NCBI GenBank assembly: GCA_012026655.1
Contig: JAAILG010000172.1
Coordinates: 1-64,000, forward strand
Reading direction: 5' to 3'
Origin: Hydrolagus affinis
Lineage: Eukaryota
DNA: 64,000 bases
Notes under the pieces: model-generated
Databases searched by the model: none
Told to the model about the DNA's origin: nothing
The model's input: only the letters and a program-made list of their open reading frames with translations
Made by a program: the position numbers and the translations under genes
Shown: positions 16,501 through 59,775 of the stretch, in pieces
How positions within the stretch are numbered: position 1 is the first letter of the stretch
How the letters are laid out: every line of letters begins with the position of its first letter

Positions 16501-19500
16501 TCTGCATTGTTTTCAAAATGCCCTTAGGCTGTGAAGAGGTAGAAAATGAGTTGCGTCAACCTTTCTGGAAATGTAGATTCTGAACTTTGCAATAATCTGT
16601 TAGCTTTTATGTGTTTTAATTTTTTTTTCCCTCATGCATCCTTATTGCACACATTAAAAAGGAAGCACTTATTATCCTGTTGAGTGTAGCTGTCGTCTGC
16701 TTGTTACAGTTCCTGATCATACCATATCCTGTCTATTAAATATGAGCTTGAACCAATACCGATTTAAATGCAAGCTAGTCAACTGCCAACTCTTGTTTAG
16801 GTCTTTAGAGTAGTAACAATAATCCTTGCATTTGATATAACGCTTTTCATGTCTTCTAGACATCTCAAAAGTGCTTCACAGAATATACAATAGAAGCCCG
16901 TTTATCCGGCACCCGCGGGACCTGGCCAATGCCGTTTAAAGCGCCTGCCGGATATTCAGGCGGCCTACGGCCAAAAACCCACTACAAAAAAATTTAAGTT
17001 CTTTTAACACACACTGTACACATCAGACTAGGTAATAGCTGATAGTGGCAGAGTATTGTGTTGGTGCTCGTTGTTGGGGCTGCTCTCTTGCGCTTCTCAC
17101 CTTTACTGATTGGGGTTTGCAGTCCAGCAATTCTTTTTTGAATGGGGGATGCCAGGTGGATGAAAGAACTGGCAGCGCAATTTAAAAGTTACTCGACTTT
17201 ACTGGCTGCAAGCCGAAGCCCTAGACTCTACTAGCGGCAAACCAAAATATTGCACCTGCGCAACAATGTGGGCTATCGGCTAGCATTATCGGCTTGCCGC
17301 TAGTATGACTTTGAAGTCATACGCGCTCCTTTTTTTCGCCTGTTTAGCGTGCTCCATTTTGGGAGGGGTCACTGGACTGTAAACCTCAACCGCAGCATCA
17401 TGGCTTCAAGCGCAGCATCTACCACCGGGGGTGGGGGGTGCAGGAGAGTAGTTTTGACGGTGAGTGCCAATGCAATATTCTGTTATTATGTTATTATTTA
17501 TGCATTTACAAATGCTCCACTGCTATTGTTCCGGATAAGTTCCGGTTTATCGAATGGTGACTTTTTTTTGGCGTGCCGGTTATACGGAAGTGCTGGTGCA
17601 TCGAGTCATGGATAAACGGCTTCTAATGTACTGTGAAGTGGATTGACTGTATATTAGTGGGCAAAACAAATTGTCTTCACCATGACCTCATCAGAGTCTG
17701 ATCTATGAAGCACTTTGAGACATCTAGAAGACATGTGTATCAAATGTAAAGATTATTATCTGAAATTGTTCCATCCACGTATGCAGTGCACACAGAAGAG
17801 TGGAGAGTGGAGACACTATATAGAAGATACTTTTATTTCTAACCTCATGTATGTAGTTTTATTGAGAATTTGAGTTACACAGTCTCTCCCTCCACAAAAA
17901 GACTCGCAAACGTTTGGACAGGTCTCACAATTTTTATTTTATATTGAAGCAAATAAGCATTCAGAATGACTATTTATGGAAATCTATGAAATGTGATTTG
18001 TATCTGCATTAGTCAAGTAGACTGGATGATTTCAAGCTTGTTGTTGAATTAAGAACTGAATCACAATTTGGAATAAACATCCTAAGTGACTGCCTTGACA
18101 TTTTTGTTTGTAAATTATTCAAATGCAATAATGCATCATGAAAAACTACAGCACAAGTAGAAAGAAGAGAAAGTAAACATTAGAAAACAAACTTGAAGTG
18201 TGCCAATCATTCGTCCCAGAGATTGATGTTCAAATCCCTCATCACAGTTGCCCATTATGTGGAAGTATGCAGTTTATTGGTCTCCTGCAGAACTATTCTA
18301 GGGCTGCATGTTGCTTCTTTCACCATTTATTAACTCCTGAGGGTAAGAGATATGGGAGTAATATAGAGGGGATTGATTTGGAAGGAGAATATCTTTATGC
18401 TTTTTGCAAAGCATGTTTGCCCTTATGCCCTCTTAGGATATTGAGTTCTTTTCCAGCTTCCCCGATACTGACCCAGGATCATAATCACACTTTTTTTCCC
18501 CACATATCTACAAATGCCATCCATCTCATTAACCACTTTCTTCTCTCCCCTCATCACCACTTTTTTTTTATTAGCCTCCTTCATACATTAGGTTAAAATT
18601 TCGGCTTCTCTCTTACTCTCAATTGTACCTTCTTGCAATTTTTTTTGTTGTGAATTTTATAATGATCCTTAAAAATGTTTTTAATTGATGTCTTTAGAAA
18701 ATGGTGATAAAGTGTTAAATTAATCTCTGTGAGTCGTGACGACTCACATGGCTTTGTGTAATCTTTAAACTCTCTTCAGGGATGATCTAAAAATTCCCTA
18801 ACCTGGACCATGTCACAAATTAACAGGCTGTCATCAACCTACTTGCTTCACCAGTGGCTTAAACTGTTAGACTCTAATTTGATAGAATTTTACATGTGTT
18901 TATTATTTTACCATAGACTACTTTATAGAAAGAAAAATTGTAATGTCTGATAGAAAGCATCAAAATATAGATAGAGGGACACCCACAACCACACTTAGTT
19001 ACTTGTAAAACTCTACTGTGGGGAAATTGTGCTGCCTGCTGAAATGCCAACTGGAAATCATTTGAATTCCTTGATTATGAGACCACACACCTTTTATTAA
19101 AAAAAGATACAGATGTGTTCAAAGCAATTTCTTTTATTCTCTCTGTCAAACAGAAAGTGAAGAACAAAGCTCTGGAAGATGTTATTGTCCTCAATGTAGA
19201 TACAAACACACTGGAAACACCATTTGATGACCTGCACAGCCTACCCAATGAAGTCGTAAGTTTTAATAGAATTTGACTTTTTTAAACTGGTGGGAGTAAG
19301 GGAAGCATTTTGCTTCACTAGGGTCTTCCAATATTAAAATGTGTCCTTTCTGATTCCATATGGAGCTGAAGGTCTAAGGGAATAACAAAAACAGTTTTAG
19401 TTTTTAAAACCAGCATTAGTTCTTCATGTTGATGCAAATAGAACTACAAAAAGCAGACCTCAAAGATTTTGAGATTGGCTCTGGCTGAAGAGCAGTTTTG

Positions 19501-22500
19501 AATTGTGTGGCTGATTGCAAATGAAACCCATGATCAGAAAGCTATCTGCATTCATTAACCATAGCTGCTTAAAATGTAGGAGTCTCTTCATCTTATACTT
19601 AATCATTAAATTACAAAGTATGCATTTCTGTCTGCCTAGTGGCATGTCTTGCTGAAGAACGAGTTGAGTTGTGAAGGGAAGGAGAAGAAGGGGGCCAATT
19701 ACCAGCTCCTGTTTTCCTGCCACCTGCCAGCTCTTTTTCCTTTAATTAATGATCAAATGGGGCTGGTCAATATAATAAGAAATACTTTTACAGTTGGGGT
19801 CACAAAATTCCTCCTTTGATCTGCTGTATTCTAAAACGTTTGTTTTTGTGAATTTTTTGTTTTCTTGTGTATTTTAACAATTTTCCTTCCAACGGAGATG
19901 ATATAAGTGGACAACTTGTCATTTGGTTTTCAAATATTTAATTTGTCTAATGCTGGTATTCTGTTATTGAAGACAATTCCAATATAAATTTGCATGACAG
20001 TTTTTTTTTAAAAGCCTTTTTTTTGTTCACAACATCTGATAATATAGGTACCAAGCTAGTGCTTTGATCTTGTGTTGCATTTCCTAAGCTACTGCTTTGA
20101 TCTTGTGCTGCATTTCCTAGTTATAAATACTTGGGTGTGTCCAGTATTTCATGTTTAATTCATGCAAACCACAAATAAATGATCAATAGTTATGCAAGTG
20201 ATATACAAGGACCAATTTACGATATTCACAACTGCATTTTCTGTGTAAATTATAACTTCCGGCTTAATAAATTTCAGTCTGGCAAACTGTCAAAGTTTGA
20301 AAATAACTGGTGAACAAAACAGTCGTTTTCATTTTATTTGTTGTTTTCTTTTAAACTTTGACTTCTGATTTGTGATTTGTCAACCACAAATTTCACAAAA
20401 CACAAGTTAAGTGACAAAAAGGCAATGAAGGCAAACAATTGTGCAAATTAGAACTGAATGTTATGTCCAGATAATGAATAATAGTAGATTATAGGAAATA
20501 TTCTTATTCCAGCAAAATTATTAATCTTCCTCTCAAAACAGATCTTAAAATATGATGAGTTGGATTCATGTTAATTTGAGTAAAGCAGTTAGAAAATATG
20601 TTTAGCTACATGCAAGTTCATGTCCCAACGATTTCAGTCCATATGGAGTCTATTATTAGGTCAGTTTGTGTATTGGTCTCAGTTGTCATAAAGGTCAGTG
20701 GGTCACAGTTGTCCTGAATTACTGAACTGTTTTCATGTAGACGCTCTGCTGTGTTGTGTGCTGTCATCTTTATAATGGTCTCTTGTCAGATATTCACACA
20801 TAATATTTAAGATTTATTGACTATTAGAAATGTTAGCATTGTCGTTAGTGATGTAGCTTCAGAAAATACTATGGACTTCCAGATGGAAAAACAATTGCAT
20901 TCATTAGCCTTTTGGGAATCTGTTTATTTATGTTCACATGTACATTGTAGTTGTGTCCGGATAAATTAAAATTATCCGTATTCTGTTGCTTCATTTTAGT
21001 TGGGTTAAGGGCATAACAGTTGTGTTTTAAACCCAATATAAAATAACACATACATTTATGTGCATCACCAAGCAGAACAACACGTGAAAAATGAGAACCT
21101 AGAAATTTCCTATTAGTTCCAGGTTTCTTTAGCTTTCTTGCTCTGCTACTCCGCATTCTCTTGGTTGATAGCTTTTAGGATCCAGGCTGTGGCCTCTCTG
21201 CGGGGAGCAGGCTATGCCCAACACAGCTTGAAGATAAATAGTTTGCTTCCCGTTTAATTCAAGAATTCTGGTTGCTCAATGGATTGTTAATGCATTCTAA
21301 AAGCAAATTGCTCTTTATTCCTACCACTGGTGTCTTACGTGTTTTGCTACTGTCCATTAAATGAAATGTTGCCAGTTTAGCAGTTATTTTCTGCTGTATT
21401 TGCTCAACAAGCTTGTGATGAACATAAACATTTCACCTGTCAATAACTTTCCTGAAGCAGCAAAAATATTAATGCAATAATCTCAAATGCCTTTTAAACC
21501 TTCTGACATGGAAGCTTTCCATTCTTGTTAAATTGGTATTTAGTGATGGATTTGGCCTCCTAGAAATTGAGTCTGTGCTATGATTTTCTACAATTTATAG
21601 AACATCCATATTGATAAATTTTACATTTGCTGTAATCCCAATAATGCCAGTGTCTTAAAGTATTTCATACAAAATTACTGTCAAGTGAAGTTACTGTGTT
21701 TGTTCGGCAAACATGGCAGCCAATTTGTGCAGAGCAAGATCCCATAAACATTCATGAGATGAATAACCAGACTTTTGGCTTGGACCTCTTCAGAAATTCC
21801 CTTCTGTTTTCAAATAGGGTCATGGCTTGACAATACCAACACTCTGCTTGCTGGATTCCCCAGCTCTTTTCCACACAGGCTGCAGATGACCAAAACTCTG
21901 CAGCCAGTGTGCTTCCCCCATTCCAGACTATGTAAATTTGTTTTGTACACTTACAACAACAGTAACAAAAGTACATTTGTACATTGCCTTTCATGTCAGT
22001 AGACTTAATGTCTAATGTTCACATTGTCAGCAAGAACAGTTTCAAAAAGTAAACTTCTGTTTCTAATGGATAAATGCATACAAATTGTTTCTCGTTTATA
22101 AATTGAAAGTATAATTTTATAGATTTATCTTGTATAAAGGTCACAAAAATACCTTCATCCAAAAATTAACCTCTTTCTTGAATCAGTACCTACCCAAACA
22201 TTTTTTTTTAAAGATGTCAATATTGTAACTAGATTTTTTTAAACTAAGAACATAAATATTTATTGTATAATTTCAGCTAAAATGATGAGATTGGATTTAC
22301 ATGGGTCTGAAATAAAACTTCTGAATGTACTTTAAGTGATAATTTTGAAGATCAGTGGCATCGATAAAAGTCTGCTCCACTTATTATTTTTGTGAATATT
22401 ACACCTGAAAGTTCTGAATAAATAGAATCTGAATCAGTTTCACATCTGAGTAAAATGAACTGTCTCAGGAAGCTTTGTGTGTCTTTTCATGGGAGCTGAA

Positions 22501-25500
22501 GTATCATCTGCCATGTCGTGCAGAGCTGCCAATTGGTGGCACAGCTCTTGAAAACCTGTACAAACTAGGTTGCACGGGGTTTTAACATGAAATAAGTGGA
22601 CATGGTAGTATATACATTTGTAATTATCTGGATATTAGTGAAATATGTGTCCAAACTCACTTGATCAATTGGCGCCTCAAACTCTACCCACTCAAATAGA
22701 ATGTTTTTTGTGATGAGGATTCATATGCTACCTCTGCTGGAATTATTTCAAAGTAGGACTACTTTTGTTTTCTAATTTGTTTTTAAAAATAAACAATTTC
22801 AATTGCTGGAAATTTTAGATTTCTGTATTTCAGAACTTCCATTACAAATACCCAGAGCAACCAAGACCTATGCTTGTTTGAAAGCAAGCAAAGTAAGCAA
22901 CCATGCTCAGAAAGCCATATTTTTAATAAATTGAGCTGTCCTGAAAAATGAAGATGTACATTCCAGTGCTTGTTTCAAAATTCTGTTGATACGGTTGGTT
23001 AGAATACATGTTTTACCTTTTATTTTCTGTTCCTTGATTGTAGCTGAATTTATGAGGGAAATAAATGAAAGAAGGCAGTGTTTCAAATTTAAAATTGCTT
23101 TGGGATTATTTCATTTTAAAACAACAACCATTTGCACTTAATAGCTCCTTTCATATTGGAGAATTCTCGAAGCAGTTCACAAAGATGGATTGGAAGGAGG
23201 AAGGAAGGGAAACATCAGTTGATTCTAATGTAATTGTCTTCCGTTGATTAGAGTAATTTATACCTATCGCATTTTTGACTAAAATGTGGAGGTTTTGTTG
23301 TTTTTGTGACACATTTTGAGGAACATTCGATCCTGTAAAAGAACTTACTGTATGAGTAATTTCACTTAGTTCTCCGATAGTTGAGCCAGTTTAACCAATA
23401 GCTGAGCCATGCTGATCAAGAAGATTCCCTGGTCTGAACTGAGTTAGCTGATCTTAATACATGCATGACCATTGGGTAGCAGCTCAAATTGGAGAAGAAA
23501 AAGGATTATCATTTCTAATCTAGTGACTCATGCTAAAGATGTGGATTTGGGGATGTTGAGTGGGGACAAGATCATATGCTGTAAAACCTCAAACATAAAT
23601 ACAGCAACAACAATAACAAATTGCACTTATGTGGCACCATCTACGCAGGGTAGTGTCTCAGGGTGCTTAATAGTGGCGGAGCCTGATAGACCATTTGGAG
23701 GAAAGAACTGGTGTAGGGTCAGTGTGGTTTTAGAAGGGAGGTTAACAAAATAGTGAAAAATAAGGTTATGCTGCACTTTATGTGCTGCTTTGCAAACATC
23801 TGCAATGTTTTCTTCTACAAATGTCCAACATGTTCAGTCTTTGAACATATTTGGGAAAGTGTATTGTAATATGTTTAAGATCTTGGCTTTTTTTTAAAAA
23901 AAAGCAATTCCCTGGCAATGCCACATAAACAATCTGCTCTGTATGTGTTGTTTTCTTTCACTTAGAATTTGTTAATATTGACTGGAATTGAGAGGGTAAA
24001 TCCAATGATATGCAGAATTAATCTAGTGCAATGTCAATTAAAAGAGCATGGAGAGTTCATTAGATTTGTATAATATTTAACCTTTCTCACCACAGAGATA
24101 TAGATTATGTACCTCACAACCTGGTGCTGAAATTAATTGAAGAAACCTAATGAGCCTTGGTATATGCAGTCACTGTACTAAATGAATTGGACTTCCAAGA
24201 CTTTCATCTGTAGCTATCAAGCCTTGATGTAAATTGAAAAGATCACAGCTATTGGGAAAAGACCTATATTGTAAAGTCCTTTCTGCATAGATTTGTGAAC
24301 ATCATAACGCAATGATTTTTCCATAAAAATATGGCTATAATTGGACCCTATGGGGGTCCCTTTCTTTGATCAGATCACAGTAACTGTGACTACACTGAAA
24401 AATGTCACTGCCGTAAAGGTTTTATCACCTGTAGAGCTGGGTTTTCTCTGATGCCTTGTTCTGCACTAGTTATCTTTATTAAGGTGTGATTAATTAGTCA
24501 TTGAGTTACAATAATAAATGATAGCAGTGAAAAATAAAATTGATATAAGAACAATAGGATAAACTTTAATAATATTACAGCCCCATAATCTGATGCTTTT
24601 GAGGTGTTCCACTGCACAATAATACATTCTTCTTGGAAAGTCAATTGCAAAATATTTACGTCAGTTATAGCCATAGCTCTGAGTGTAATTTTTATAATGC
24701 CACAATTGTGGCCTGCACGTAAACATGGGCCATCTTCAATTATGCTTTTCTATTTGTGTTTGAAATAATTCTATGCTTTTCTTAAAACAAAATGTTGCAA
24801 ATCACTGAAATTTTATTGTGCTTGGTGGAACTGATCTGATCATGAGTAGTTGACCTTTAAAGAGAAATGGAATTACTTGGGAGCTATCTGTTGAATGTTC
24901 ACATGAAATTTCCTTCATCTTATTTGGTGCGGTATGCATAAATCCTTCGTTCTAGAGATGATGATGCATGTGGAACAATCCAAATAAGTTCTTCACGGTT
25001 AAGTAATTAAAACCCTTGTTACCTTAGGAGTCTTTCAGAATCTCAGACAATATACAGTATTAGTGTTTTTCTATTAATAATGGAGTCTTTTTGTGGTGCT
25101 TAATGAATACTCAGAAGAAAAAAGTAAATGTCATTTTTAGAACAAAGATCATTTGAGTGGCTTGGGAAGCTGTGCGTAGCTTCAGTGAAGGGTCTGGACT
25201 AATTTTTATTGTACTTGGTATGAGTTTCAGCTTTTTCTCACTTATTTAGATCTCTACCCTGAAAAATAAGTTGAAGAAACAGTCTACAGCTACAGGAGAT
25301 GGAGTAGCCAGGGCTTTTCTCAAGGCACAGGCAGCTCTGTTTGGTTCCTACAGGGATTCACTTCGATATAAACCCGTGAGTATTTATTTTAATTTCCCAA
25401 CTGTGCCTTACATTGTAGCAATCCTTGCATTTGATGCAGCACCTTAACCTGTCTTCTAGACGTCTCAAACTGCTTCACAGAATATACTATAGAGTGAATT

Positions 25501-28500
25501 AGAGTGTATAGTTTGGGGGTGAAATGCGGCAGCCAACTGCGTATCCAGTTGTAGATTGAGCGGCCACATTTTTTTGACGGGGTTATTATCCGAGCTCCTA
25601 ACCTACAGCTACGTAAACTGGTTTGTGGAGTAACAAAACTTGCATCTTGGAGTGCTTCCCTTATAAAAGCTCCAGCATTGAGGCCAGGCAAAGCTGAAGC
25701 AGTTGCCCCAATATTGCTTAGTTAAGATTGCCGATGATTTTGTCAAACTTTGTGTTTCCCTCTGCATCCAATCTTAAGTTAGCAAGACCTCCCTTTTCTA
25801 TAAGAAGCAACAATGCACAACTTGCCAATGTAGGATAACAAATTTAATTAGAAGCCATTCCTTAAATGAAATTCTTCTTCACATATTTGAGTGTCAGCCT
25901 GCCTCAGTGGCAGCACTCTTGCCCCTGAGTCAGAAGGTATTGCAGTAAGCCTGACTACAGGACATGGAATCACATAGTCTAAACTGAACCTCCCATTGCA
26001 TTGGTAATGATGTGTTGCATTGTCAGAGGTACCATACTTCCAATGACCTGTGAAACCGAGGTCCTGTCTTCCTAATCAGGTGGACAATAAAGATCCCATG
26101 CCTCTGTTGAAAAGGGAGCAGCTTTTCTCCCGGTGTCCTGGCCAACAATTCCCCAAATAAAATTGGGCACTCACCATGGCTGTTTGAGTGACATTGGTGT
26201 GAGCAACTGGCTGCTGCATTTTGCCCACAAAATATAACTTATCCACTACAGAATTTCCTGTGAAATGCTTTGAGATATTTCAACATTGGGCTGAGATCAT
26301 AGAATTTCATAGACTCATAGAATTTAACGGCACAAAAGGAGGCCATTCGGCCCATCTAGTCTGTGCCAGCTCTTTGAAAAGAGCAATTCAATCCCACTGC
26401 CCAGCTCTCTCCCCATAACCTAACAGACCTGTTCTCCCTAAATAAAGATCTAATTAAAGATGTAATGATGTAGATCTAAATAAGGATGCTATATCAAATG
26501 TGAGAATTACTATTTTATTATTATTTTTCCAACTCTTCTCCAAAGCTTTTGCTCTGGGGAATATCTGAACTCTTCTGTTTTATAGGCATCGCTGTCATAT
26601 CCTTCTTTCTCATTTTGTGCTTTTTATTTTGCAGTGGTAAACAGACATAGTGTAATGAATTCTCCCTGCTATTAAAATGACTGAATTTAAGCACAAAACA
26701 CCATTAACCTTGCAACACATAAATGCATAAGATCTACCTATGATGCCAGTATAACAAAGAATCCTTTCTTATTCTGGACTGAGTCTTGCAGCATCCAAAT
26801 AACATATGCAGCTATGTTGTGCATTTTAAACTATAATTTGTGTTTGTTTGCATTTGAGATGTGATCTATTTGATTTCATCAGCATTGACTTTTCATCTTC
26901 TAGGCATCTCAAAGTGCTTCACAGAACACATTGTAAAGTGACTATACTTGTGGGCAAAACGTGGCAGCTAATTGCGCAAACAATTGTGGATTGAGTGACC
27001 AAATTATTATTGTTTTTATTTTCTTGAGGGATTGTTATCCGGCATGTGGAGTAAGAAAACTTGCCCAAGATTTTAGCCTTCCGTGAATCAAACCCAGGTC
27101 TCTCGCTTGCGAAGCACGTGCTCTTACCACTGAGCTACAGGACTTCAATAGGTTTAGTATCAACCACCGCTTCAGGCAGCGAGTTCCAGAGAATTCCACA
27201 TTGTGCTGTGTGAAGTAGTTCCTCCTAAATTATCTTTTAGATCTCCTAGTCGCAATCTTATAATTGTGTATTGAAAACGACTTTTCAATAAGTATAAAAC
27301 AACCTATTAATGCTAACTTTATTCAACACTTTTATATTTTAAAACTTCTATTTTTCCCTCTTTTAAATGTCCTCATTGTGAAAAAAGAGCAAACCTATCC
27401 AGCCTAACTTGCACAATTCTTGAGATCTGGGAACTGAATTCTTCAAACATAGCCAATGGCACAACAAATGTCTCAACACTTGAGATCAAGTGCTGAGAAA
27501 AAATGCATATTTTTTACCTGGACAGTATCAATGCAACAAGCATATTATTCATTAGTGTATACGAGTCAGTATTTATTCCTTTTGCGTGAATTTGTGTGCT
27601 GATTAAGGTTATTTTCTAGGAGAAGCAAACTTTTCCCATATTGATCATGTGCTCACGTATACATGGGTCAGATAGAGAAAAACTCTGTACTCTGCCTGAT
27701 GTTTATACCTTAACTCCAACTTCACAAGAGCATGGTTTGCACCAGTGTGAAGACAAATATTACCCTTTCCAGACACGCGCCATAAATTTTGCCTTTCTTT
27801 TAGATTTCTAATTTGGTTCGAAGGTGTGGGTGGTTTTGCAGGACAAATCAAATGAAGTAGGGCCTTAAAGCTTTTTAAACTTGTTTCATGTAGAGCTCTA
27901 CAGCCATCAGTGAAAATAATCTTTTATCCAAGCAGCTCAGGCTCGTTTATGTTGCGTTCATAGGTTGAGGGTAAAGGACCGCTGCATCACTATTCCCCAT
28001 AGTGCAATTCTATCGGAAATAATTATAATCTTTATAAAGCCATAATTTACAAGGGTTTGTGTTGAATGTGTTGCTCCCATCATTCGTCTCTGTTCATAAA
28101 ATAAAACAAGCCTACTCTACTCTGAGGTTTAATATGACACCTGAGTTGGAAAACAAAGAAAAAATTATTTATGGTGTTGTGTATTTTAATTGTTGGATTC
28201 TATTTTGTGAATAATTTGATATATGGTTTAGAGTTTATAGTGATAGCATCGCAGCATTCCTCGATGGAAAAAGAAGTCATATTTAATGCTTCTTGGCAGC
28301 AGTTATTCCCAATGCTATTAACTGCCAGTGTTCTGAAACACAGCCAGAGAATGTAACCATTTGTATCGCAATGTTACAACATGTAAAGTTCTCATCTCAA
28401 AAAGATTAAAGGATGTTGTCCCAGTTCATATCACAGTTACACTTCAAACATGGATTTCCCATTTTGAGGGTCAAACTTTCAGATGTTTTTAACATTGTTG

Positions 28501-31500
28501 TCTACACTTTACATTTTTTATGGTTTTTTAAATAGAGGAGAAATTTAAGATTTTTAAAAAAAATCTAATAATTGAACTCTAGTCCCTGTCCCTTCAGCCT
28601 TTTCTTTTAATGCACCTGGTTACAAATTTATGGGTTTCTGCTAAGAATTGTTTTAACTTTCTACACAGTGTATTCTGCGTGTGCCACTCAGATTTAAAAG
28701 ACTGGCTCAGTTAACTGGTATGAGCCAAAAGTTAATAATAACAATAATACTCCTTGCATTTGATATATCACCTTATCACATCTTCGAGACATCTCAAACC
28801 CCTTCATAGAATATACAAGTATCCCGCCCCAACTGTGGCCTCGTCAACCGTGAAACTCATGCATCCATAGTTTACTAAATGCGACAACCCTTGCTAACCA
28901 CGCAATGGTTTTCGCTTAACCCTTGCTTATCCACGGGTTTTAACACTAACACTAGCGTTTGGCGCTAGGACCCAGTTGCATCAACCAGCTTCGCGCTAGC
29001 ATCTGGCGCTGGGACCCAGTTGCAATGTCGCAATCAACCAGCAAGATGTCGCTTCTCTTTTAGGATTAAGGTAAATCTCCATTGATTTCTCTCTCTCTGT
29101 CTGTGTCTGTGTCTCTCTGTGTCTGCAGATCCTGGCAGCCAATGCTCCCAAACTTACTCCCCCTATCAGCATGTCACCCACCACACCACCTACTGCACCC
29201 CCCCCCACCCCCCCACCCTCCATATCGCCCACTCCCCCCACCCTCTGTGTCACCCACCCCCCCACCCTCCGTGTCACCCCCCCCCACCCTCCGTGTCACC
29301 TACACCCCCCACCCTCCATGTCACCTACACCCCCCACCCTCCGTGTCACCTACACCCCCCACCCTCCGTGTCACCCCCCAACACCCTCCGTGTCACCCCC
29401 ACCCTCCGTGTCACCCCCACCCTCCATGTCACCCACCATGATTTCTCTCTATGTAGATCAGTCAGTCAGACATCCTCGCGGATTGCTGCAGATGCATCCA
29501 AACTTACTCCCCCTATCCCCATGTATAACTGCATGTGTTTTTTTTTGTGTTTAGTTTTACTAAACGCGAACTTACCCATGTTTCCCACAGGCCCTGCATT
29601 TTCCAACCGCGAAAAAGAAAACTTACTCCCCCTATCCCCATGTTTCCCATAGGGCCCTGTATTTTCCAACCACGATTTTACCAACCACGGAGGTTTTCAG
29701 GAACTTATGCCCTGCGGTTGCGGAGGGATACCTATACTGTAAAGTGAATTGACTGTATACGTTTGTGGATGTAAAACATTCATAGCCAATTTATTGAGTT
29801 ATCAGTAATGTAAAATGTCTCCAAACCTCCATCAGCCCTTGGTTTCACTGCCAGTAACTTCAGATAATTCCAGGCTCCCTGAACTGGCCATTTAGTTTCA
29901 GATTACTAACATTCAAACAGTAATAAAACAGAAGAATTTCAAAAAGCTAAAAGCTTGTTGGGAGAATAAGAAAAACCTTTTAACTCGTTCTTTTTCTTCA
30001 GTTGAATTCTCACCTTTTGTACTCTCCTGTTTTTATTACATTTTAATTTTTCTGTACTTCTGAGTGCAGAAAGGATGCAGGTCATAAAAAGCAATATCTC
30101 AGTGGCTGAAAGTTAGTGCAAAGTCTCCTTTATTTCTTACCATTTGAGGCTCAGCAACTCAAAGGATGGAATGAACAAGATGAGAATACAATCAAATCAA
30201 TATTTGATGTAATTTCCAATGTATGTACTAATATACCCACCCACTCGCCCCCAAAACAATATTTGGAATGATTTCTAATCTCCAAAAGTCCAAATATTTC
30301 TACTTGTATTTGCTTGGTGTATTCTGACTGTGCTGCAATGACTCGTCATAATTCTCCTTTCTCCAGGAAATGCTTAGAAAATATGCTCCAGGGAGCCTTC
30401 TATGCTATGTGTGACGATTTTTTTTGGTGCAATGTGAATAAATATTAAAATTCTCATTTTTTTCATTATTTGATGAACTCATCTTTCATTTTGTCTTGTG
30501 TGCCATTTAAATTTGTAACTCAGTGACATTCAAAACTGCTCCATTATCCAAATAGTGGTTTCATGTGAAAAGCTACTTTTGCTGTAGAAGATTTTCATCT
30601 TCATGAATGTACACTATGAAGAATAAATGTATTTTGCTTTACCTATTTACAGGTCAGAGATGTCACATGTTGCCTGACTGTACTTGTGTTGCAACTTTAG
30701 GTCAAGCCTGCTAATAAATACATAAATGGAAAAAAAAAATCATTTTTCCTTTTTAGACATATATAATCAATGCATGAGTGCCCCATGTTTGACTGAAAGG
30801 ATCTCACAGAAAGTAAAATTATTCTCTTTTTCATCAATTGTCAATCCACTGTTGGAATGCACTTACACATAGGTTAATAAAACAGAGTAAAAAGATTAAC
30901 ATTAACGTAATTGGAAATCATAATTTGCCAGTGAAATGCAATTTCAAATTCTATTCATATTAATCTTTTTACTTTCGCTTTGAGCAAAATATTTGCTCAA
31001 TATATTTTTGGGAAAGGAATGTTTGCAGTACTTTTTGTATTGTAACTGCTTCAGATAGGATTGCTCTATGCTTTGGCTTACAAGGTTAAGCACCTGTCTA
31101 CGCCTGCATGTATGTTTGCTTTGGATTATTGCAGACCTGCCAAGCCTGTCACCTCAGAGACCATTCAGCCCACAGTTTGATAATATGCTGTGATGGGTCC
31201 TTTCGCTGTGGTGTTGAAGATGCAGTATTTGTGATTAGCATCACACTGCTTTCTGGTGTCAGTAACAAATAATTAAGTCAGCACAACAGGTAGAAAGCCA
31301 ATCAAGTCTTCAAACAACTTATTCCTTACCCATTCAGAATAAATCAAAATTTGATTTTTCACCAATTTATAGCCTATAGCACTTCCAAAGAAATATGTCA
31401 TACTTTGAATGTGCAAGTTTTATAAATGCAAGTTTTCATACATATGGAACTCCTACCATGATGTTTAACCTATTTAGCAGTTAACGAACATCAGTGGAAA

Positions 31501-34500
31501 AGCAAATTCTACGTTTAACTACTGATATGTACCGTACTTGTATTTGCTGGTGGTGTGATCTATTCAGTTAACATTGTAATTGTGGTTTAATTGCAGGGAG
31601 AACCCATCACATTTTGTGAAGAGAGCTACATTGCCCATCGTTCCAACACAATAAAACATTTCCTTCAAAATGCTGTTCAACTTCAGCTCTTCAAACAGGT
31701 AAAGCCTCATGTATTTGTTGTCTTTCTCAAATCACTGAAACTATTATGAATGTATCTGTTTTTAATAGAATAATCTGTTTCTGTACCACACACCTGTGTG
31801 TAGCATTTTTTGAACTCATATAAATTGTGTATGATGATAATGAGTGATCTGCGTAGACTTATGACACAGAGGAATTTCTTGAGTTCTCTGAATAATAGTG
31901 ACCTGTAGTTCAAACACATTTCAGCTCTCCAGAAGATCTGTTGCTCTTAAGTCATTTGATAACATGATATCCACAAAAGTTATCCATATCTGATCTTATG
32001 AAGGAAAAGCTAAGTATTTTGGCCCACTCACTATATATAGGAATCTGTGCAACAAGAATCCAAAACGCATGTCGTTATCTGCCTGGTTCATCATTTGCAT
32101 CCCGTTGCTGCTGCCATTGTTATAATTTTCAGGAATTGCATTTGTTTCATTTCATTGGTTGCTGAATTGACATCCTTCATATTACCACTGACAGCGCTAT
32201 TTGGGTAGTCACTGATTGCACTTTATGGTCCAGTGAGTATCTGGCTTTTTTGACCTTTTCAGTGTGATGACGCTTTATAAAATAAAAAAACAGGTTCACA
32301 CTGGTTATTTCAGACTTAAGCTAAATACAGTATGTACAGCAAGTCTCATCTATTATTGTAATATAAGACTGATAACGTCTGTCACCTAAATATCCTAAAC
32401 AATCAATAATATTTATGGGAACTATTTTTATAACTCATCCATATTTACAGAATGAGAATTTAGTTTGTTTGTTAGTGTCATCCCTTATAACATCTTTGTA
32501 AATCTACTCTGTGCTCTCCAATAATAATAATTCTTGCATTTGATATAGTGCCTTCTCAGGTCGTTGAGATGTTTCAAAGTGCTTCACAGAATATACTGTA
32601 AAGTGAATTGACTGTATATTTTGTGAACAAAATGCTACAATATGTTAAAATATTCAGAGTGGTAGATCCATAATAGTATTTCCATTTGGAAATCATAAAT
32701 GAAGTATGGCCATGTACTTTAAAGGATTTAAATTCTTTGTATATAATTATTTTAACAAATGTACATTATAGAGAATGCTATCTGTGAATAAATGCTCAAG
32801 CATATAATTTTATCGATGAAATGCTAGGTACTTGCACCACTTTCTGTCCCTCCAAAACATCTTCCTTAATCACAATAAATAAAGTGAAAATATGTTGAGG
32901 CATTCCTGCAGATGTAAAATGGCACTCAGATTAGTATGTTTGTGCCAAATGAACTTTACAATGAAATCTTGCCATTAGCAGTTCTTAATAAATTGGTCTT
33001 TATTGACTAAATACCACTAATTGTATATCTTGGTGCACGGCAATTTGTGTGTCTGCAAAGAGCATAAAGATATACAATTCTTATTTGTGAAGAATTGTTG
33101 TCTTAATGTTTCAAAATACTCTGTGAATATTGCAGACCAATGAAAGGAAGATGCTTAAAGTGTTTAAAATTTTGCTTTACCTATTCCAATTTAAATATGT
33201 ATTTCTTGATTTTTTTGTTTTAGTTTATTGATGGTAGGTTGGAAAAGTTAAATACAGGGAGAGGATTTTCAGATATTTTTGAAGAGGAGATAACTGCTGG
33301 GGGCTACAGTGGAGGTGAGAATACAGCTTCATAAAATTCATTGGTTACCCCTCCTTATCTTATTGTTGGTCTGTGGAAGAAACTGTCAATTGTTGCAACT
33401 TGCATTCACAAAACTTAATCGCTCCAAGAGTTAAACAAATGTAGTGATGCACATTCAAGAGAAAATGTTGACCAAAAGCACACTTCAGAGAGTTTTTATA
33501 AGGAGGTTTTTAAACAGGGTGTAATGATAGTTTAGATGAAGTGTTTGAAATTGAAATTCTAGTGTAATTCATTTTCAGAAAATTATACTTTAAATTCTTG
33601 TGTGTAGGACATTACTGTGTGCAAATTGGCTACTCTTTCTCTTACAAACATGCAGTCACCACACTTCATACCAAAGTCCTATGAAGTGGTTTAAAACATC
33701 TCAAAATCCTAGGATTAATCTATTTTTCATTTTTCAAAAATGTAATTACAATGTTGCAATCCATTTCTTTGCGTTCTGCTTACAGGAAGTTCAAAATCAT
33801 ATCAGCAGTGGATGCAAACAGTCAAGGTTAGAACAATGTACTGGTATAAATGTGAATGTATAGATTCTGTTCTCCATATTTATTTGGTGGGAAGTAATCT
33901 GCTTCATATGTATTCTGCGAGCATTATTCTGTACTAAACTAGAGATTACATAACCAGAAATTGCTGCGATACATAAACTGGCTTATTCCATTCTAATCAT
34001 ATTGAAATTTAAAAACAAAGCGGGGCACTGAGATTTGGGGGATCACCAGTTACCCTTTCCAATTGAACTAGCAAATCTTATCAAAACCTTTCCAGTTTAC
34101 AAATTCTCATCAATGTGATTGCATTCACCAGTAGCAGCTGATTGCCAAATATCCACTCTTATGGTGGGACTGGGTGCTGGGGTAGCTGAGTGGCAACACA
34201 TTTGTGGACATGTTGACCGGATCATATGGTTACTGAGTGGGAGAATTAACATTGCTTTTGTTGCAGATCTACTTTAGTTTTTACTTGAACAATAAATGGG
34301 CTGGAATATTGTTTTGCAAGGAATAGCCGTTCATAAAGAGGATAGTAAGATTATAAGGGATATGGAGAAAGTGGAAATTTAGAATAAAATAATTTCTTAC
34401 AAAATGCTGGGAAGGGCTGAATGGCCTACTCCTATTACTGTGTTTTTATTAAAATCAAATACTGTTTGTTTGCAGAAAGGCGGAGCCCTTATTAATACAG

Positions 34501-40500: not shown

Positions 40501-43500
40501 AATTTAACCTTCCAGACTTTATAGCAATTTGGAGTAAGATGATTAACTAGATTCATTTTCCTTTTTTACTATTCCTAATACTGTACATAAATTCTGAGGC
40601 CAAATTGTGCACACCTAATACTTTCACTCACCTCTGAGACAGAAAATTGTGGCTTCCACTCTCATATTGAACTCTGAACTCATAAGAGCCTAGGATGACA
40701 CTCCAACATAGTGCTGAGGTTTGTTATGTTGGAGTTCCATCCTTGGATAAAACATTAAATTGAGACTCCCTATTCAAGCTGATGTTAGAGATCCTAAAGT
40801 ACTAATTGAAAAGAGAAGGGGGTTTTGTCCTGTATCCTGGTCAACAATTCGCCCAGATAAAAATTGGTCATTCACTTTATAACTGTATGTGTGACATTGC
40901 TGTGCACAATTTGGGTACCATGTTTACATTCAGATAGACAGTCACTACACTTGCAGTATATCTCCTAAAGTGCTTTGAGGTGTCCTCTTATCGTGAATGT
41001 CACTATATGTAAGTATAGTGTGAGGATTGTGAATGTAAGTATTATTATTGCAAAGATCTAACTTAATTTTTAAAATATGTTTTAACAGTGAGTACTCATC
41101 ACATCTTGCAGGGAAATTGTTGAGGGACAGTGGAGCAGAACAATGACTTTCTCACATTAACACCATAGAAACTGTCATTAGCCCCATAGAGATTGCTATT
41201 AACCCAAGGTGCTTCAAATTTTCATTTTAACTACCAGTTGACAGAAGGCATATGCGAGCGTGGGCGATACTGTTTTTTTCTGTAGTGACACCATTTTCCT
41301 TCATGTCTTCCTTTGCTAAACTGCAGGGTAAACTGGCTGGCGCTAGGCAGAGTGAGACTTGGGAGTCAGTCCCCGCCAATCTCCTGCTGTTGATACAATG
41401 TATGGAGAAGTTATTACTTGCACCTAAGATGAATGTGTCAGTTGTTCAAAAAGTTCGTAACCTCTTCAGGTTTTAAACCAATTTCATCTCTTCTCCATTC
41501 TGGAGAAGTAGTGGCATCTATTTTTAATGCATAATCTGAAATAATTTCCTCCCTAAAATTTCAAGTGCACTTGAAATATATTTAAATTGCATCAAGACTT
41601 GGCAGAGTGGAACTGTTTTATGCTGCCAAATGAAATGGGTAAAGCATAGCTTTGAAGCACTGAGAGGCATAGACTGTCAGTATGGGTGCTGATGCACTGG
41701 AAAGAACAGAGTTTACCCCCTGGGGTTATTTGCAGTCATTATCCAACATGAGTATGGAATAATGATGTATTCCATATCAGCCTGCCTCTTCAGCATGATT
41801 CTAAATATCAGATTTACGCTGAGTATTGTGCCAGTAATAATCCAATTACTGTACTTCGTTCAAAATTTAAATTTTTCCTCATTTCCATGAATTATGACTA
41901 TCCAATTAGGGCTTTAGAATGGGATACCCAAATATTCAGTAACAAATAAGGGACTCATGTTTTAGATTTTAATGTGTTTGATTGATTTAATCATACAGTC
42001 AACTACAGAAAGCTAAAAATATACGAGTGCTTAAACATTTGTTAATGTGGCGGCTCCTGAGGCTATAATATTGCTGTTGATCTATTAAGTTGAATTAATT
42101 ATATCTTTATAAATGCATTTTGCAAACTTATTGCAACCTCTAACTTGAATTGTTCCGTTGAGAGAAGTCCCAGTTCCTTTTAACATTGATATTCAGAATT
42201 TTCCCAATTTAGGTTTGTCCTCAATTTATATACGTACGTTCAGGATAAGACGTAGTCTTGAACTATAACTGTCCCTCCCTCTTTGCTTTTGATGTTTTAT
42301 TGAATTCATTGCACTGGTCCAGGATGCATCCATTTATCCTGGAGAATGAACACCTTTATTCTTTCAGTTTTAACTGTTCCCAGGTTAAGTATTGCATGGG
42401 CAATACATTATAATTTGTATTTATATAAACCTTAATATGGAGTCCTGTAGCTCGGTGGTTAGAGCACTCACTTTACAAACGTAAGACCTGTGTTCGAATC
42501 CAGGCAGGACGAAACCATGAGAAAGTTTCCTTACTCCACACACCTAATGATAATCCATCAAAAAAACCTATAATAAATTGGTAATTTCAATCCACGACTG
42601 TTTGTGGGACACTGGTGTGCACAATTGGCTGCTGCGTTTCGCCCACAGATGTAGTCAATTCACTTTACAGGATATTCTGTGAAGTGTTTTGAGATGTCTA
42701 GAAGACATGAAAAGTGCTATATCAAATGCAAGGATTATTATTATTGTATGAAATATAAGACCAAAGACCTTCATAGCATCTACTACAAAGTATTACAACT
42801 GTGTAATTTACAAGTGAAAGTACCTTGGTATGTCTCCTGACACTATACACATGTAAGTTGTTATTGAAAGCAGCATGCAATTTGTGCACAACAATGTTCT
42901 GAAAATAACCATGGCATGAATGACCAATTCTATTTGTGAGATTGTTGTCCGAAACACTGGAAGAAACTACCCGCTCTTTTTGAATAATGGCATATGTGAA
43001 TCAGCAAATGGGATCTTGCTTTAACTTCTTACCTGAAAGGCAGCACATCCAACAGCACCATATTAGTGTCACATTGGATTGTGAGTTTAAAATCCTGACA
43101 TGGGATGTACACCTACAATGTTAGTGTAGATGACTCCACACGCCTAATAACAATCCCTCCCAAAAAAACACAAGAATAAAATTGGTCATTTAAATCCACG
43201 ACTGTATGTGGGACATTACTATGCGCAATTGGATGCTGCATTTCACCCGCACATATACAGTGAATTCACTTTGAAGCGCTTTGAGACGTCTAGAAGACAT
43301 GAAAAGCGCTATATCAAAATGCAAAGATTATTATTATTCTCAAAAGAACTTTAATTTTTCCTCCAAAATGCACTATATACTTGCAAAATAATCATTAAAC
43401 AAATCATGAAAGGCTTTATGAAGAGAAACAATGCATTTTTTAATCCCTCACGGCCATGCTGTTCGGAAACACATCTGCTCATCATGTTAGCACTAGGGTC

Positions 43501-46500: not shown

Positions 46501-49500
46501 ATATCCAGGCATGAAATAGTACCTTTAGGAGAGAGGGGATAAAAAAATGATTCAATACTAAGCTTGTATAAGATTTAAACCTAACCTTTTCATTTCAGTG
46601 AAGCACATGATTTTTTTACAACTAGAATTGTTCTTTCATGGTAGAAGTTACAGAGCATCTGCAATTAAATGGATTTGAAAATGTAAGCCCAGAATAATAC
46701 TTCAGAATGCATCAAGGTTTAGAGTTGCAAAGGGCAATTCAGGATATATACCAGGAAGTCATTCTTTACCCAGAGGGTAATTAACAACTTTTAACAAGTT
46801 GCTTGGAGGCATGCTTGTGGCCAGGGCACTGCAAAAAAGCAACTAGATGCTGTGTTGTGTGTGGTAAGAAGGGTGTGACTGACTTTCATTAACATTAGCT
46901 GATGTCTTGAATTGTAGAGCAACGATCTGACGTGATTTAGAAATACAAATAAAGCATTGTCAGAGGGGCGGGCTATATACTTACCCACATGACAATTGTA
47001 AAAAAACAACTTCAGAGCAATAATCCTTTCCCTACAACAGTGTAACATTCCCTTTTTGGAATTTGTGTCATCCAGGTTAACTAGCATTTATTTGTTTATT
47101 ACTGTATAATCTTCTAATTTCAAGTTTTGTTTTAAAAAATTGAAATACAGTAAAAGCCCATTTATCCGGCACCCGCGGGACCTGACCAATGCTGGTTAAA
47201 GCGCCTGCCAGATATTCGGCAGGCGCACCACAAAAAAATTAAAGTTCTTTTAACACACACTAGACTAAATAATAACATAATAACAGAATATTGTATTACT
47301 TATTGTTAAAACTACTCTCTTGCGCTTCTCACCTTTACTGATTGAGGTTTACAGTCCAGCGATTCTTTTTTAAATGGAGGACGCCAAGCGGGTGAAAAAA
47401 ACGGCAGCGCAATTTTAAAGTCACGCAAATTTACTAGCAGCAAGCTGATAGCCCTGGACTCTACTAGCGGCAAACCAAAATACTGCACCTGCGCGACAAT
47501 GTGAGTTATCGGCTAGCGTTATCGGCTTGCCGCTAGTATGGCTTTAAAGTTGCGCTCCGTTTTTTTCACCCGTTTGTCGTGCTCCATTTTAAAAAGAATC
47601 GCTGGACTATAAACCTCAACCGCAGCATCATGGCTTCAAGCACAGCATCTACCAGCAAAGGTTAGAAGCTCAAGAGAGTAGTTTTAACAATAAGTACCAA
47701 TACAATATTATGTTATTATTTATGCATTTACAAACGCTTCACTGTTATTATTCCGGATAAATTCCTGTTTATCGAATGGGAACTTTTTTTTTGGCGTGCC
47801 GATCATACGGAAGTGCCGTTTCATCGAGTCACGGATAAACGGGCTTCTACTGTACTTCATGTTTCTCTGAAATCTTCTTTGACAACTAAAATCATGTAAA
47901 AAGGCATTGACTTAGTGTCTGTTGATAGTTAACCAAAAGCAAAGTTCTACTTTTTTAACAATATGCAGCACATGACAAAACTATATGTTGAAATTGTGCA
48001 TGTTGGAAGGTCGTATGAGGCAATAATGTGCAGCCTTTGTTTTCTTTCACAACAGAAATATAAACACAACATTTATAATTGTTGCCATGTTTATGCTGCT
48101 CGCCATTGCTTCCAGCAGTAGAGTGATCCAGAGAAGAAGACAGGATTTCTGTTTCCTGATCCCAAATTACTTTTCAGCAGCAGTTAACTTTCACTATCAC
48201 GTGACCAGCTCTTGAAAAACATGAAAAGTGTCAAGAGTATCTCAGTGGTCCACGGAATGACTTTTAAACAATTTTGTTTTAATTTTAAGAGTTCTTAATA
48301 TTGTAGCCCATTCATCAATTTCTATAATGGGGACCATATCAGTGCTTGGAAGGAAATTGGTATTTCAAACTTGTGCTTCATAAACAAAATAATATTGAAT
48401 TGACATTAACTGTGCAGTTTAAATAACATAAGGTTTTATTGCAAATGGACCCTGTTTTAAAAGGTGCATTCTGTGGATCTTTGGTTGGTTTGGGCTCAGT
48501 ACTCAAAAAGTGACATCAGCTACCTGATGACCCAGGATTAGGCCAAATTTTAGCATGGGAAGCCGCCAGCTTCCTGCAAGCATCTGTCGTTTTCTGACAG
48601 GCAGGCACTCATCATTCCCTGTTATAAAACGGATTGAAATTTTATGGGCCCCTTTCTACTTTCTTGTAAGGGTACTGTATTGTGTGTTTTGGATTTTGGT
48701 GTGTGTTGTTGATTCATAAGAAAGCATTGTGTGTTACTCAACTATGCATAAACTCAGATCAATGTACTATATCAAATAGTAAAAGCAAAACAAATTGGTT
48801 CCCTGTTCTTTGCACAAAATCATTAATTTGTGGGTATGGGCAACAACTAAAGATTCCAGCCCTTTTGTGCTTTTGTATTTGTGTGCCATTGCTGTCTATA
48901 ATTGCTTGAAATAGCTGGTATGGTATTTCTTAACTATAGAATATTTCCCATAACAGATGGCCAGCCTTAGGCTAAATAAGGGATTATAGAAGACATATTG
49001 GAAGAACAGTGAATTTTAGTTTCTTAATTCTCAACTCCTGTTAATTTATGTTGAGCATAGGTGAATGAAAAGTTCATTTTAAACGTTTTAGCAGTCTGAC
49101 TGAATACGTATTTCATCCATTGAAGTTCTCATCAAATTAATGAGAATATTGTGCTTCTGTCTCAGGATAGAAGTGGGACATTGGGCATGCAACAACATGC
49201 ACAGTATTGTCTTAATCCTTGTGCAATCTAGTTATTACGGAAATGCTTGGAATTCTTATATGATAGCCTAAAGATAAGCTTTACATATGCTACATTCGGT
49301 CATTAAAGGCACTAAGTTCAAGCAAATATTCATTAATGATGCTTTTTGTTTCCTGATTTATTTAATAATATATTGACCTTATTATTTTTGCAAGAACTAT
49401 TAGATTTACTATTTTGCCCAGTTGCCTCAATTAGAACAAAAATAAGTGAATACCAAGTTTTAAAAGTGTCCTTGACATATGCAATATTCAACCTGGCTTA

Positions 49501-58330: not shown

Positions 58331-59775
58331 TTGGCCTTTGAAGCTGAACATTAAATTGTCGTTAATGAACTAAATCTCTATAAAGCCCTGTGCCAGTTTT
58401 TATTTCCAGTATTTTCTGTGGAAACTTTGTAGGAGAGACCATTCATCTTCATGAAAATTAACACAATACAATTTTATGTGATGCCTTATTCTGGTTATTC
58501 TACTCCATTCAAATATTACAGCAACATCTGGATTGCAAAGGCCTGACTTTAATTGATCATGGAAATTCTCTGCGATGCCTGTGTTTTCACACATCGCTAA
58601 CCAGTCTTGGCAATTCTGACTGTTCTGTTCAAATATTAACTCGAGCTCTTGGTAGCGCGAATATCTCCGAAATTCAGAATATCCGAATTTGACATGAAAT
58701 AAGTGACCATTTTGGCACAGCAAATATAGACTGTTACACAAATTTGGATTGTTGATCTTTTTTGGTTATTGTTATTGAGAGTTGTCCAAGCTGCTGTGTA
58801 ATACTAAGGGAAACTGTACAACATTGACTGAAGAAAGTATTCTTCAGACTTTGCAGAGCTGTGCTTTGCCTTTGCCAAACAATAAAATTTCAATTTTATG
58901 TTGCTCCTGTGCCTCGTGTTTCATATTTCGACATTGTACAGATTCTGAATCATATTTCAAATTGCAAATTGGAATGGAAACTGTCATTGTTTTATTTCAT
59001 GGGCATGCTGTTGTCACTAGATTATGAATCTACCCTGACTGACTGATTTACCAATTAATCCCAGAATCACAAAGTGCTCAAAATTGCTGAAGAAGGAATG
59101 CTTTAACCATTGGCATAGAAAATAGGTGAGAACTGGTCACAGCAGCTAAATGAAGAGATGGGTGAGTGATGCAATCAAAGGAGCACCACTGGATTATCCA
59201 TTAAACTGAGCTAGAAGCCTTCTTTAATTTGGCTTGCAGCACAAGAGAAGGCAACCACCGGCTGGTAAGAAATCCTTCAATGAAAACATCTGCTTAGTAC
59301 AATGAAAATAGTAGTCATTCATGCGGAACAAAAATAATGGCACAAGTTTAATTTTTCAATTCTTTGAAATCTTAAACTACTTTATTTCTTGTATTTTAGC
59401 CAATTACAACACAAAGCAAGTAAAATGTGAGTGTCAGTTAGATCAAACAATTCCTTTCTGTATTGTTACAGATTAGCACAACAACATACTCCCAACAAAT
59501 ACTATTCCTTGTACAGTACATGAATAATATGGAACATTTTATTTTTCTCCACAGTATATTTACATTTAATCAACTGTTCTAAACAGAACTATATATACTA
59601 CTATATACTGTGTGTATAATATATATTACTAACAATTCTAATTATGACAAGTACAAGGTAAAAACAAAAATTCTTAAATATAACAGTCAGAAATGCTTTT
59701 CAGCACAATTGTGTAAAAACATTCTTGGGGGTAATTGGCACTTTGCACGGAAATGAAAATATTATTGGTATGCTG

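What the first reader, a model, noticed from the sequence alone, without database searches (positions are those of the whole stretch)
16881..29745. Two different DNA transposons inserted at the identical TA of two separate SINE copies
Seen: MITE A (16888-17628) has flanks cacagaataTA|...|TActgtgaagtg. MITE B (28816-29734, different TIR and interior) has flanks catagaataTA|...|TActgtaaagtg. Both duplicate the same TA of the SINE motif acagaatatactgt, which is intact at about 32587 and 52205. The motif is a near-palindrome, and its TACTGTA equals both the MITE A end plus TSD and the canonical Tc1-type footprint. Two of the three Tc1/mariner insertions I found hit this one position. Inference: the abundant SINE provides a recurrent landing pad for pogo/Tigger-type transposases, a possibly undescribed TE-targets-TE relationship.
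Basis: partly seen in the sequence, partly recalled or inferred. Interest (0 to 1): 0.72.

Follow-up and report, generated by a model that had tools for sequence, protein, structure and literature searches.

The report
Jumping-gene hotspot in an abundant SINE
Two different jumping-DNA elements do sit at the same spot of two copies of a very common short repeat, and one of the two families uses that spot about 19 times more often than an average TA site, but it favours the same few-letter sequence equally outside the repeat, so this is likely ordinary sequence preference and not one element targeting another.

Summary
Observation confirmed: MITE A (16888-17628) and MITE B (28816-29734) both duplicate the same TA (position 244 of a 318-nt tRNA-headed SINE) in two separate SINE copies. 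Genome-wide (1.11 Gb), the site is a real hotspot for family B: about 19x the average TA (95% CI 12-27), with independent insertions scattered over the B tree. Family A is barely enriched (about 1.8x) and uses neighbouring SINE TAs as often. A flanking-sequence model trained only on insertions outside the SINE predicts both results (B 8-20x depending on model, A 0.3-2.7x) and the split among five SINE TAs. The same 6-bp context outside the SINE holds 8 of 58 B insertions (18x background). At least about 90% of B ends and 99% of A ends lie elsewhere. So the SINE (over 120,000 exact copies of the motif) happens to carry a good target for one Tigger/pogo-type family; A and B meeting in one window is a coincidence expected about 0.2-2 times per genome. 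Hotspots of DNA transposons inside SINEs are published (hAT in MIR3). A residual two- to three-fold SINE-specific boost for B is not excluded. No earlier scan note covered this.

The parts
16814..16887 (-). SINE 3' tail fragment (consensus 243-316) hosting MITE A; ends in the left TA duplication 16886-16887
   Evidence: blastn to SINE consensus, 91%; alignment with intact copies
16888..17628 (.). MITE A, 741 bp, non-autonomous Tigger/pogo-type element with about 25-bp TIRs; keeps the start of the transposase ORF near 17400
   Evidence: ends and ORF start shared with DDE_1 elements L256/L248
17629..17667 (-). Right TA duplication (17629-17630) and continuation of the SINE (consensus 207-244)
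28740..28815 (-). SINE 3' tail fragment (consensus 243-318) hosting MITE B; ends in the left TA duplication 28814-28815
28816..29734 (.). MITE B, 919 bp, non-autonomous Tigger/pogo-type element; right end 79% like the right end of DDE_1 element L240
29159..29438 (+). C-rich minisatellite (18-25 nt units) inside MITE B, similar to the 3' end of the L240 transposase ORF
   Evidence: (D2)
29735..29768 (-). Right TA duplication (29735-29736) and continuation of the SINE (consensus 214-244)
32520..32621 (-). SINE fragment with the empty target site (motif 32586-32599)
42440..42745 (+). Full-length SINE copy with tRNA-like head (42441-42512)
47148..47852 (.). Second MITE A copy, TA duplication, not in a SINE (internal control)
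52140..52446 (-). Full-length SINE copy with the empty target site (motif 52205-52218) and tRNA-like head

Best explanation
The SINE's TA at position 244 is a real insertion hotspot for MITE family B and not for family A, and it is likely a hotspot only because its flanking bases match family B's general target preference and the SINE repeats that sequence over a hundred thousand times. Shown: both families insert at TA with a symmetric preference (purine before and pyrimidine after the TA, A/T at the next position), B adding T at +4 and A at +5/+7 and A adding A/T at +3, G at +5 and T at +7; the SINE site fits B's profile (top 1.3% of TA sites) and not A's (top 20%). Inferred: the pogo/Tigger-type transposases read or bend 6-8 bp on each side of the TA as a symmetric dimer, with no recognition of the SINE as such; the A insertion in this window is a near-background event, and the pair is a coincidence picked out by a window scan.
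For: B: 22 of the first 100 of 202 anchored matches are strict B ends at the exact site (tallied by hand), against 123,619 exact anchors and 2,256 filtered B ends: 18.8x (12-27), 18.3x after a denominator correction. A model trained on 161 non-SINE B half-sites predicts 11-20x for widths of 4-8 bp, 10-18x with stricter SINE exclusion (140 half-sites) and 8-15x when ends preceded by the footprint-like 5-mer are also dropped (133). Model-free: the site's 6-bp context holds 8 of 58 non-SINE B insertions against 0.78% of background TAs, 17.7x (7.9-32.6), and 0 of 61 for A. Among five SINE TAs B falls 28:4:2:11:1 against 27.6:5.2:2.2:8.0:3.1 predicted (width 6, p=0.58; no-context model p=2e-10); from the other side 48:13:0 against 48.2:9.1:3.8 (p=0.06). 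A: 7:11:0:3:9 and 13:11:0; enrichment 1.2x (0.25-3.5) for one end variant, 2.1x (0.8-4.4) for the other, 1.8x pooled, predicted 0.3-2.7x. B ends abutting the SINE anywhere: 24 of 185 (13%), predicted 12-14.5%. Nine B copies at the site need 9 changes on an 80-row tree (shuffled mean 8.7).
Against: The fit depends on model width: width 8 over-predicts site 239 (p=0.002), width 2 fails for B, and width 4 fails for A. The strictest training gives 8-15x, below the observed 18-19x, so a residual of up to two- or three-fold is open. SINE copies (median 8% from consensus) overlap in age with B (median end branch 0.084); copies younger than B's burst would hide part of an excess. Three of the 8 model-free sites resemble decayed SINE pieces (scores 29-42); without them 5 of 55 remain (about 12x, hand calculation). 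Training sets are small and only the first 100 rows of each pattern search were seen.
Confidence: 0.85

Rival explanations
1. SINE-specific targeting on top of sequence preference: the B transposase is drawn to SINE copies (Pol III factors, chromatin, or a longer recognition sequence), adding a two- to three-fold boost.
For: Observed 18-19x lies above the strictest predictions of 8-15x; young SINE copies may dilute the observed rate; other CAG-ended families also favour the site, 8 of 9 rows.
Against: Confidence intervals overlap; identical 6-bp context outside the SINE is used at 17.7x; B occupancy of the SINE overall, 24 of 185 half-sites, equals the prediction; at least about 90% of B ends are elsewhere; family A shows nothing comparable.
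Confidence: 0.08
2. Footprint re-use: TAs inside TA-CAG-TA/TA-CTG-TA excision footprints are re-targeted, and the SINE site is favoured because the SINE master carries such a 7-mer.
For: The footprint-like outward 5-mer is the commonest context of non-SINE B ends, 10 of 161 (16.7x background); these two spacers are the commonest TA-NNN-TA spacers in the background (19.5% and 18.1% against a median of 7.5%); a few SINE insertions carry an extra 5-bp footprint-like unit beside the element end (2 of 100 rows).
Against: Only one orientation is used (10 of 17 against 1 of 7), B prefers TA at +4/+5 in other contexts too (27 of 137 against 7.6%), A does not use the motif (1 of 158), the other TA of the 7-mer (239) is avoided (0 of 61), and 311 SINE copies show no subfamily lacking the 5 bp (one 5-bp deletion near it). 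It is a variant of sequence preference, not SINE targeting.
Confidence: 0.05
3. Composite amplification: one SINE carrying a MITE was retrocopied or duplicated, so the shared site reflects few events.
For: Seven of 8 oriented B copies at the site in loci L130-L159 face the same way.
Against: Lengths range 477-1204 bp, outer flanks differ, both ends occur next to the anchor (about 18 right to 9 left, against 73:50 in the sample), the 9 copies are scattered over the tree, and A and B are unrelated in their interiors.
Confidence: 0.02

Closest known systems
Insertion hotspots of transposons inside other repeats in the human genome, including MER1 (hAT) DNA transposons at positions 154 and 160 of the SINE MIR3 (Levy, Schwartz and Ast 2010, PMC2836564; abstract, passages of the hotspot section and the whole motif section read; supplements not read)
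   Same: A DNA transposon family piles up at single positions of an abundant SINE, in both orientations; the authors trace hotspots to preferred integration sequences present in the target consensus.
   Different: Other host, other SINE, and pogo/Tigger-type (TA) instead of hAT (8-bp duplication); that paper reports only the flanking TA for Tc1/mariner in the text read, whereas extended preferences are measured here for two families.
Palindromic target-site motifs extending beyond the duplication in TIR transposons, pogo included (Linheiro and Bergman 2012, PMC3276498; abstract and passages read)
   Same: Symmetric, AT-rich, family-specific preference around a 2-bp duplication.
   Different: Measured there in Drosophila populations up to 3 bp beyond the duplication; here from fixed insertions, with signal out to about +7.
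Dada superfamily, DNA transposons strictly targeting tRNA and snRNA genes (Kojima and Jurka 2013, PMC3706591; abstract and one discussion section read)
   Same: DNA transposon found repeatedly at one position of a multicopy, Pol III-type sequence.
   Different: Dada is strictly specific, makes 6-7 bp duplications and hits the RNA gene itself; here at most about a tenth of B and under 1% of A ends are at the site, the duplication is TA, and the site is in the SINE tail region, not the tRNA head.
Tigger/pogo-derived MITEs (MER2-type non-autonomous elements; family naming recalled, not from a call)
   Same: TA duplication, about 25-bp TIRs starting CAG, internal deletion derivatives of elements coding CENP-B_N/HTH_Tnp_Tc5/DDE_1 transposases.
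   Different: These two families could not be matched to Repbase or Dfam names with the tools at hand.
Major tRNA-derived SINE of the elephant shark (Venkatesh et al. 2007, PMC1845163; passages read)
   Same: tRNA-derived, 7-8% of the genome, 3' end shared with a LINE; the SINE here is tRNA-headed, 8.2% of sampled DNA, with a tail like that of a LINE-like repeat.
   Different: No sequence comparison was possible, so identity with that SINE is untested.

Membership tests
pogo/Tigger-type MITE (Tc1/mariner group) | TA target-site duplication | tested here: met
   Both window elements and the great majority of 30 A and 30 B loci; empty SINE sites restored.
pogo/Tigger-type MITE (Tc1/mariner group) | Short terminal inverted repeats, no coding capacity, high copy number | tested here: met
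   TIRs 21 of 24 matched in the second A copy; 2,394 + 5,524 A ends and 2,256 B ends by filtered exact pattern; no transposase ORF in the window copies.
pogo/Tigger-type MITE (Tc1/mariner group) | Ends shared with an element coding a CENP-B/DDE_1 transposase (family A) | tested here: met
   L256 has A-type ends at 230 and 2928 around a broken DDE_1 gene whose N-terminus hits CENP-B_N (E 1e-15) and HTH_Tnp_Tc5 and matches the ORF remnant in MITE A.
pogo/Tigger-type MITE (Tc1/mariner group) | Ends shared with an element coding a CENP-B/DDE_1 transposase (family B) | tested here: inconclusive
   L240 (582-aa ORF, DDE_1 E 1.5e-45, HTH_Tnp_Tc5) shares B's right end (79% over 114 bp) and interior words, but no B-type left end was found in 9.5 kb: a relative, not a proven mobiliser.
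tRNA-derived SINE | tRNA-like 5' head | tested here: met
   ARAGORN calls at 42441-42512 and 52374-52445; Rfam tRNA 29 bits.
tRNA-derived SINE | 3' tail shared with a LINE and ending in a short tandem repeat | tested here: inconclusive
   Tail ends in a 3-nt repeat and resembles the tail of a LINE-like repeat at 11930-12030; the partner LINE was not identified.
Strictly target-specific transposon (Dada-like) | Most copies inserted at one position of the target | tested here: not met
   About 4-10% of B ends and 0.8% of A ends at the site; 0 of 27 other independent top-scoring A copies.
Strictly target-specific transposon (Dada-like) | Preference not explained by short local sequence found elsewhere | tested here: not met
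   Context model and model-free 6-bp test reproduce the enrichment.
Strictly target-specific transposon (Dada-like) | Direct recognition or tethering shown biochemically | not testable with these tools
   Needs a transposition assay.

The most novel reading that the evidence does not exclude
Family B and related Tigger-type transposases are drawn to this SINE site two- to three-fold beyond what local sequence predicts, for example by re-using an excision-footprint-like 7-mer that the SINE master spread to several hundred thousand places, so that a retroposon seeded safe landing pads for DNA transposons.
Probability: 0.1. Interest if true: 0.5.

Novelty: new member of a known kind. Interest (0 to 1): 0.17.

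Why it matters
As found, it is a clean worked example of a known effect: a high-copy SINE multiplies one good target sequence and so collects several percent of one transposon family's insertions. It gives target profiles for two Tigger-type families that differ although their related transposases are only about 34% identical in the catalytic part, and it warns that parallel insertions at one SINE position are homoplasy, not shared descent. It does not open a new mechanism unless a residual SINE-specific boost is shown.

Tried and rejected
Composite amplification: rejected by tree, lengths, flanks and orientation. Shared targeting by both families: rejected, A is at 1.2-2.1x. SINE site as an inherited excision footprint: no SINE subfamily lacking the 5 bp among 311 copies; neither shown nor excluded. 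Circular training: tested by stricter SINE exclusion and by dropping footprint-like ends; predictions fell modestly. L264 first looked like the autonomous partner of A but is another Tigger-like element nested inside an A-ended element. PDB search with the A-related N-terminus found nothing. B density from A-centred DNA gave 0 ends in 210 kb, so the coincidence estimate was void and was redone from genome counts. The filter used to print flanks (no G 17 bases before the TA) removes sense-side ends at the SINE site, so '0 of 100' A ends and 3 of 185 B half-sites at the site in those samples understate it; the enrichment figures rest on the anchored searches instead. Paper searches found no description of this SINE-Tigger site; the library is partial, Repbase and Dfam are not searchable, and the unread supplements of PMC2836564 may list Tigger hotspots in SINEs.
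Full report
Observation. MITE A occupies 16888-17628 and MITE B 28816-29734, each between two TAs. Taking out the element and one TA restores the motif that is intact at 32586-32599 and 52205-52218. The host is a SINE lying on the minus strand at both places: a 318-nt consensus from 59 long copies has a tRNA-like head and a tail ending in a 3-nt repeat. The shared TA is consensus position 244; other TAs lie at 221, 223, 239 and 246. The two host copies are separate truncated fragments with different outer flanks. A second MITE A at 47148-47852 is not in a SINE.

What the elements are. A DDE_1 search of the window's genome G000 (1.11 Gb) gave 150 scored matches and 30 loci. L256 has A-type ends on both sides of a broken transposase gene; its N-terminus hits CENP-B_N and HTH_Tnp_Tc5 and matches a short ORF remnant in MITE A. 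L240 holds a 582-aa DDE_1/HTH_Tnp_Tc5 ORF and shares B's right end at 79% over 114 bp; no B-type left end was found. The two transposases are about 34% identical over the catalytic part. Both MITEs are thus pogo/Tigger-type (name recalled), tied to different transposases. The SINE covers 8.2% of the unmasked sampled DNA, and the exact 14-mer ending in the target TA occurs 123,619 times in the genome.

Is the site enriched? Family A: none of the 27 other independent top-scoring copies is at the site (30 loci of 40 matches fetched, the window copy and two duplicated loci set aside). For the end variant with 2,394 filtered ends, 3 sit at the exact anchor (9 matches, 7 in SINE-like flanks, 3 with the exact 14-mer): 1.2x the average TA (0.25-3.5). 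For the variant with 5,524 ends, 6 of the first 100 of 202 anchored rows: 2.1x (0.8-4.4); pooled 1.8x. Family B: 22 of those 100 rows are strict B ends at the exact site, against 2,256 filtered ends: 18.8x (12-27), 18.3x after correcting the denominator. Rows were tallied by hand from printed match lengths and end types. Over sites 244:246:239:223:221, one search gives B 28:4:2:11:1 (one of the 28 is a related family) and A 7:11:0:3:9; the other 24 rows were other families (7) or at shifted positions (17). The opposite-side anchor (first 100 of 114) gives, for 244:246:239, B 48:13:0, A 13:11:0, other families 8:1:0, and 6 rows at shifted positions. About 4-10% of B ends and 0.8% of A ends are at the site, which makes up 0.44-0.54% of all TAs.

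Independent events. B copies at the site are 477-1204 bp long with different outer flanks and clean TA duplications. On a tree of 80 B elements (5 of 85 left out as under 400 bp; bootstrap not settled) the 9 site-244 copies need 9 changes, shuffled mean 8.7, and starred branches force at least 6.

Why B and not A. From 1.01 Mb of loci not chosen for SINE content I took 170 A and 185 B half-sites, set aside the 12 and 24 that abut the SINE, and scored 58,110 background TAs. Both families prefer a purine before and a pyrimidine after the TA and A/T next; beyond that they differ. Leave-one-out gains on 61 A and 58 B non-SINE insertions are 0.8-2.1 and 1.3-1.5 nats. The SINE site is in the top 1.3% of TAs for B and the top 20% for A. 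Predicted enrichment at exact-anchor sites: B 13, 16, 20 and 11x for widths 4, 5, 6 and 8; A 2.7, 1.8, 2.3 and 0.7x. The five-site split is fitted for B at widths 5-8 (p 0.3-0.6) and not without context (p 2e-10); the opposite-side split fits at widths 4-6 (p 0.06-0.10) and not at 2 or 8. For A, widths 2, 5, 6 and 8 fit and width 4 fails in both sets. Without any model, the site's 6-bp context holds 8 of 58 non-SINE B insertions (17.7x, 7.9-32.6) and 0 of 61 A insertions. Three of the 8 may be decayed SINE pieces; stricter training gives 10-18x, and 8-15x when ends preceded by the footprint-like 5-mer are dropped too. B ends abut the SINE anywhere in 24 of 185 cases (13%), as predicted (12-14.5%).

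Results against this reading. The strictest predictions fall below the observed value, and SINE and MITE ages overlap (SINE median 8.1% from consensus, A 5.9%, B median end branch 0.084), so young SINE copies could hide an excess; a two- to three-fold SINE-specific boost is not excluded. The flank-printing filter drops sense-side ends at the site, so site counts in those samples are low. A footprint-like 5-mer is B's commonest non-SINE context (10 of 161), which leaves footprint re-use open as a minor term.

The coincidence. With these rates a 64-kb window holding both an A and a B at this site is expected about 0.2-2 times in the genome, depending on the copy numbers assumed (rough), and more often if other sites and families count. 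Two of three in one window is a selection effect of the scan.

Known work. Levy et al. 2010 (PMC2836564; abstract, hotspot passages, motif section read) report that most nested insertions fall at hotspots, among them hAT transposons at two positions of the SINE MIR3 in both orientations, and relate them to preferred integration sequences. Linheiro and Bergman 2012 (PMC3276498; passages) show palindromic target motifs extending past the duplication for TIR families including pogo. True target specificity, as in Dada (PMC3706591; abstract and one section), means nearly all copies at one site and is not met. [quoted passage not shown] Searches found no account of this particular site.

Verdict. 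Real, partly a true hotspot, and ordinary in mechanism: a new instance of a known effect. Interest 0.17.

Noticed in passing
window 43494-44153: TIR element with a 7-of-8 matching 8-bp flanking duplication (hAT-like MITE by that trait); similar DNA in L252, L265 and at window 59750-60190.
   Followed up: partly
G000:C3684, C18253; C12580; C441; L034: An extra 5-bp footprint-like unit lies directly beside the element end where the ancestral SINE sequence is known: re-insertion into an excision footprint or duplication of the element end.
   Followed up: partly
non-SINE background of loci L002-L239: The two Tc1/mariner footprint-like spacers are the commonest TA-NNN-TA spacers (19.5% and 18.1% against a median of 7.5%), suggesting many old excisions or unmasked element ends.
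   Followed up: partly
rows; L242, L250, L260: At least three further CAG-ended Tigger-like families occur at the SINE's TAs, 8 of 9 at position 244; L242, L250 and L260 are DDE_1 elements with such TIRs.
   Followed up: no
L264:540-2891: A Tigger-like element with a broken DDE_1 gene (about 765-2353) is nested inside an element with MITE A-type ends, next to another MITE A.
   Followed up: partly
L069:167-749: A 370-bp A-type MITE at SINE position 244 followed by an inverted duplication of the SINE tail.
   Followed up: partly
window 47297-47696 and 17071-17500: MITE A has a fold-back interior: internal inverted arms of 49 and 63 bp, with the transposase start in the opposite sense to the left end of the element.
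   Followed up: partly
L240:859-2604: Intact 582-aa Tigger-type ORF with only a right TIR, downstream of another Tigger-like N-terminal ORF; recent element or domesticated gene.
   Followed up: partly
window 11727-12494: Minus-strand 255-aa frame resembling the C-terminus of a LINE ORF2, with a tail similar to the SINE tail.
   Followed up: partly
window 54401-54973: 190-aa stop-free frame that looks like a host exon.
   Followed up: no
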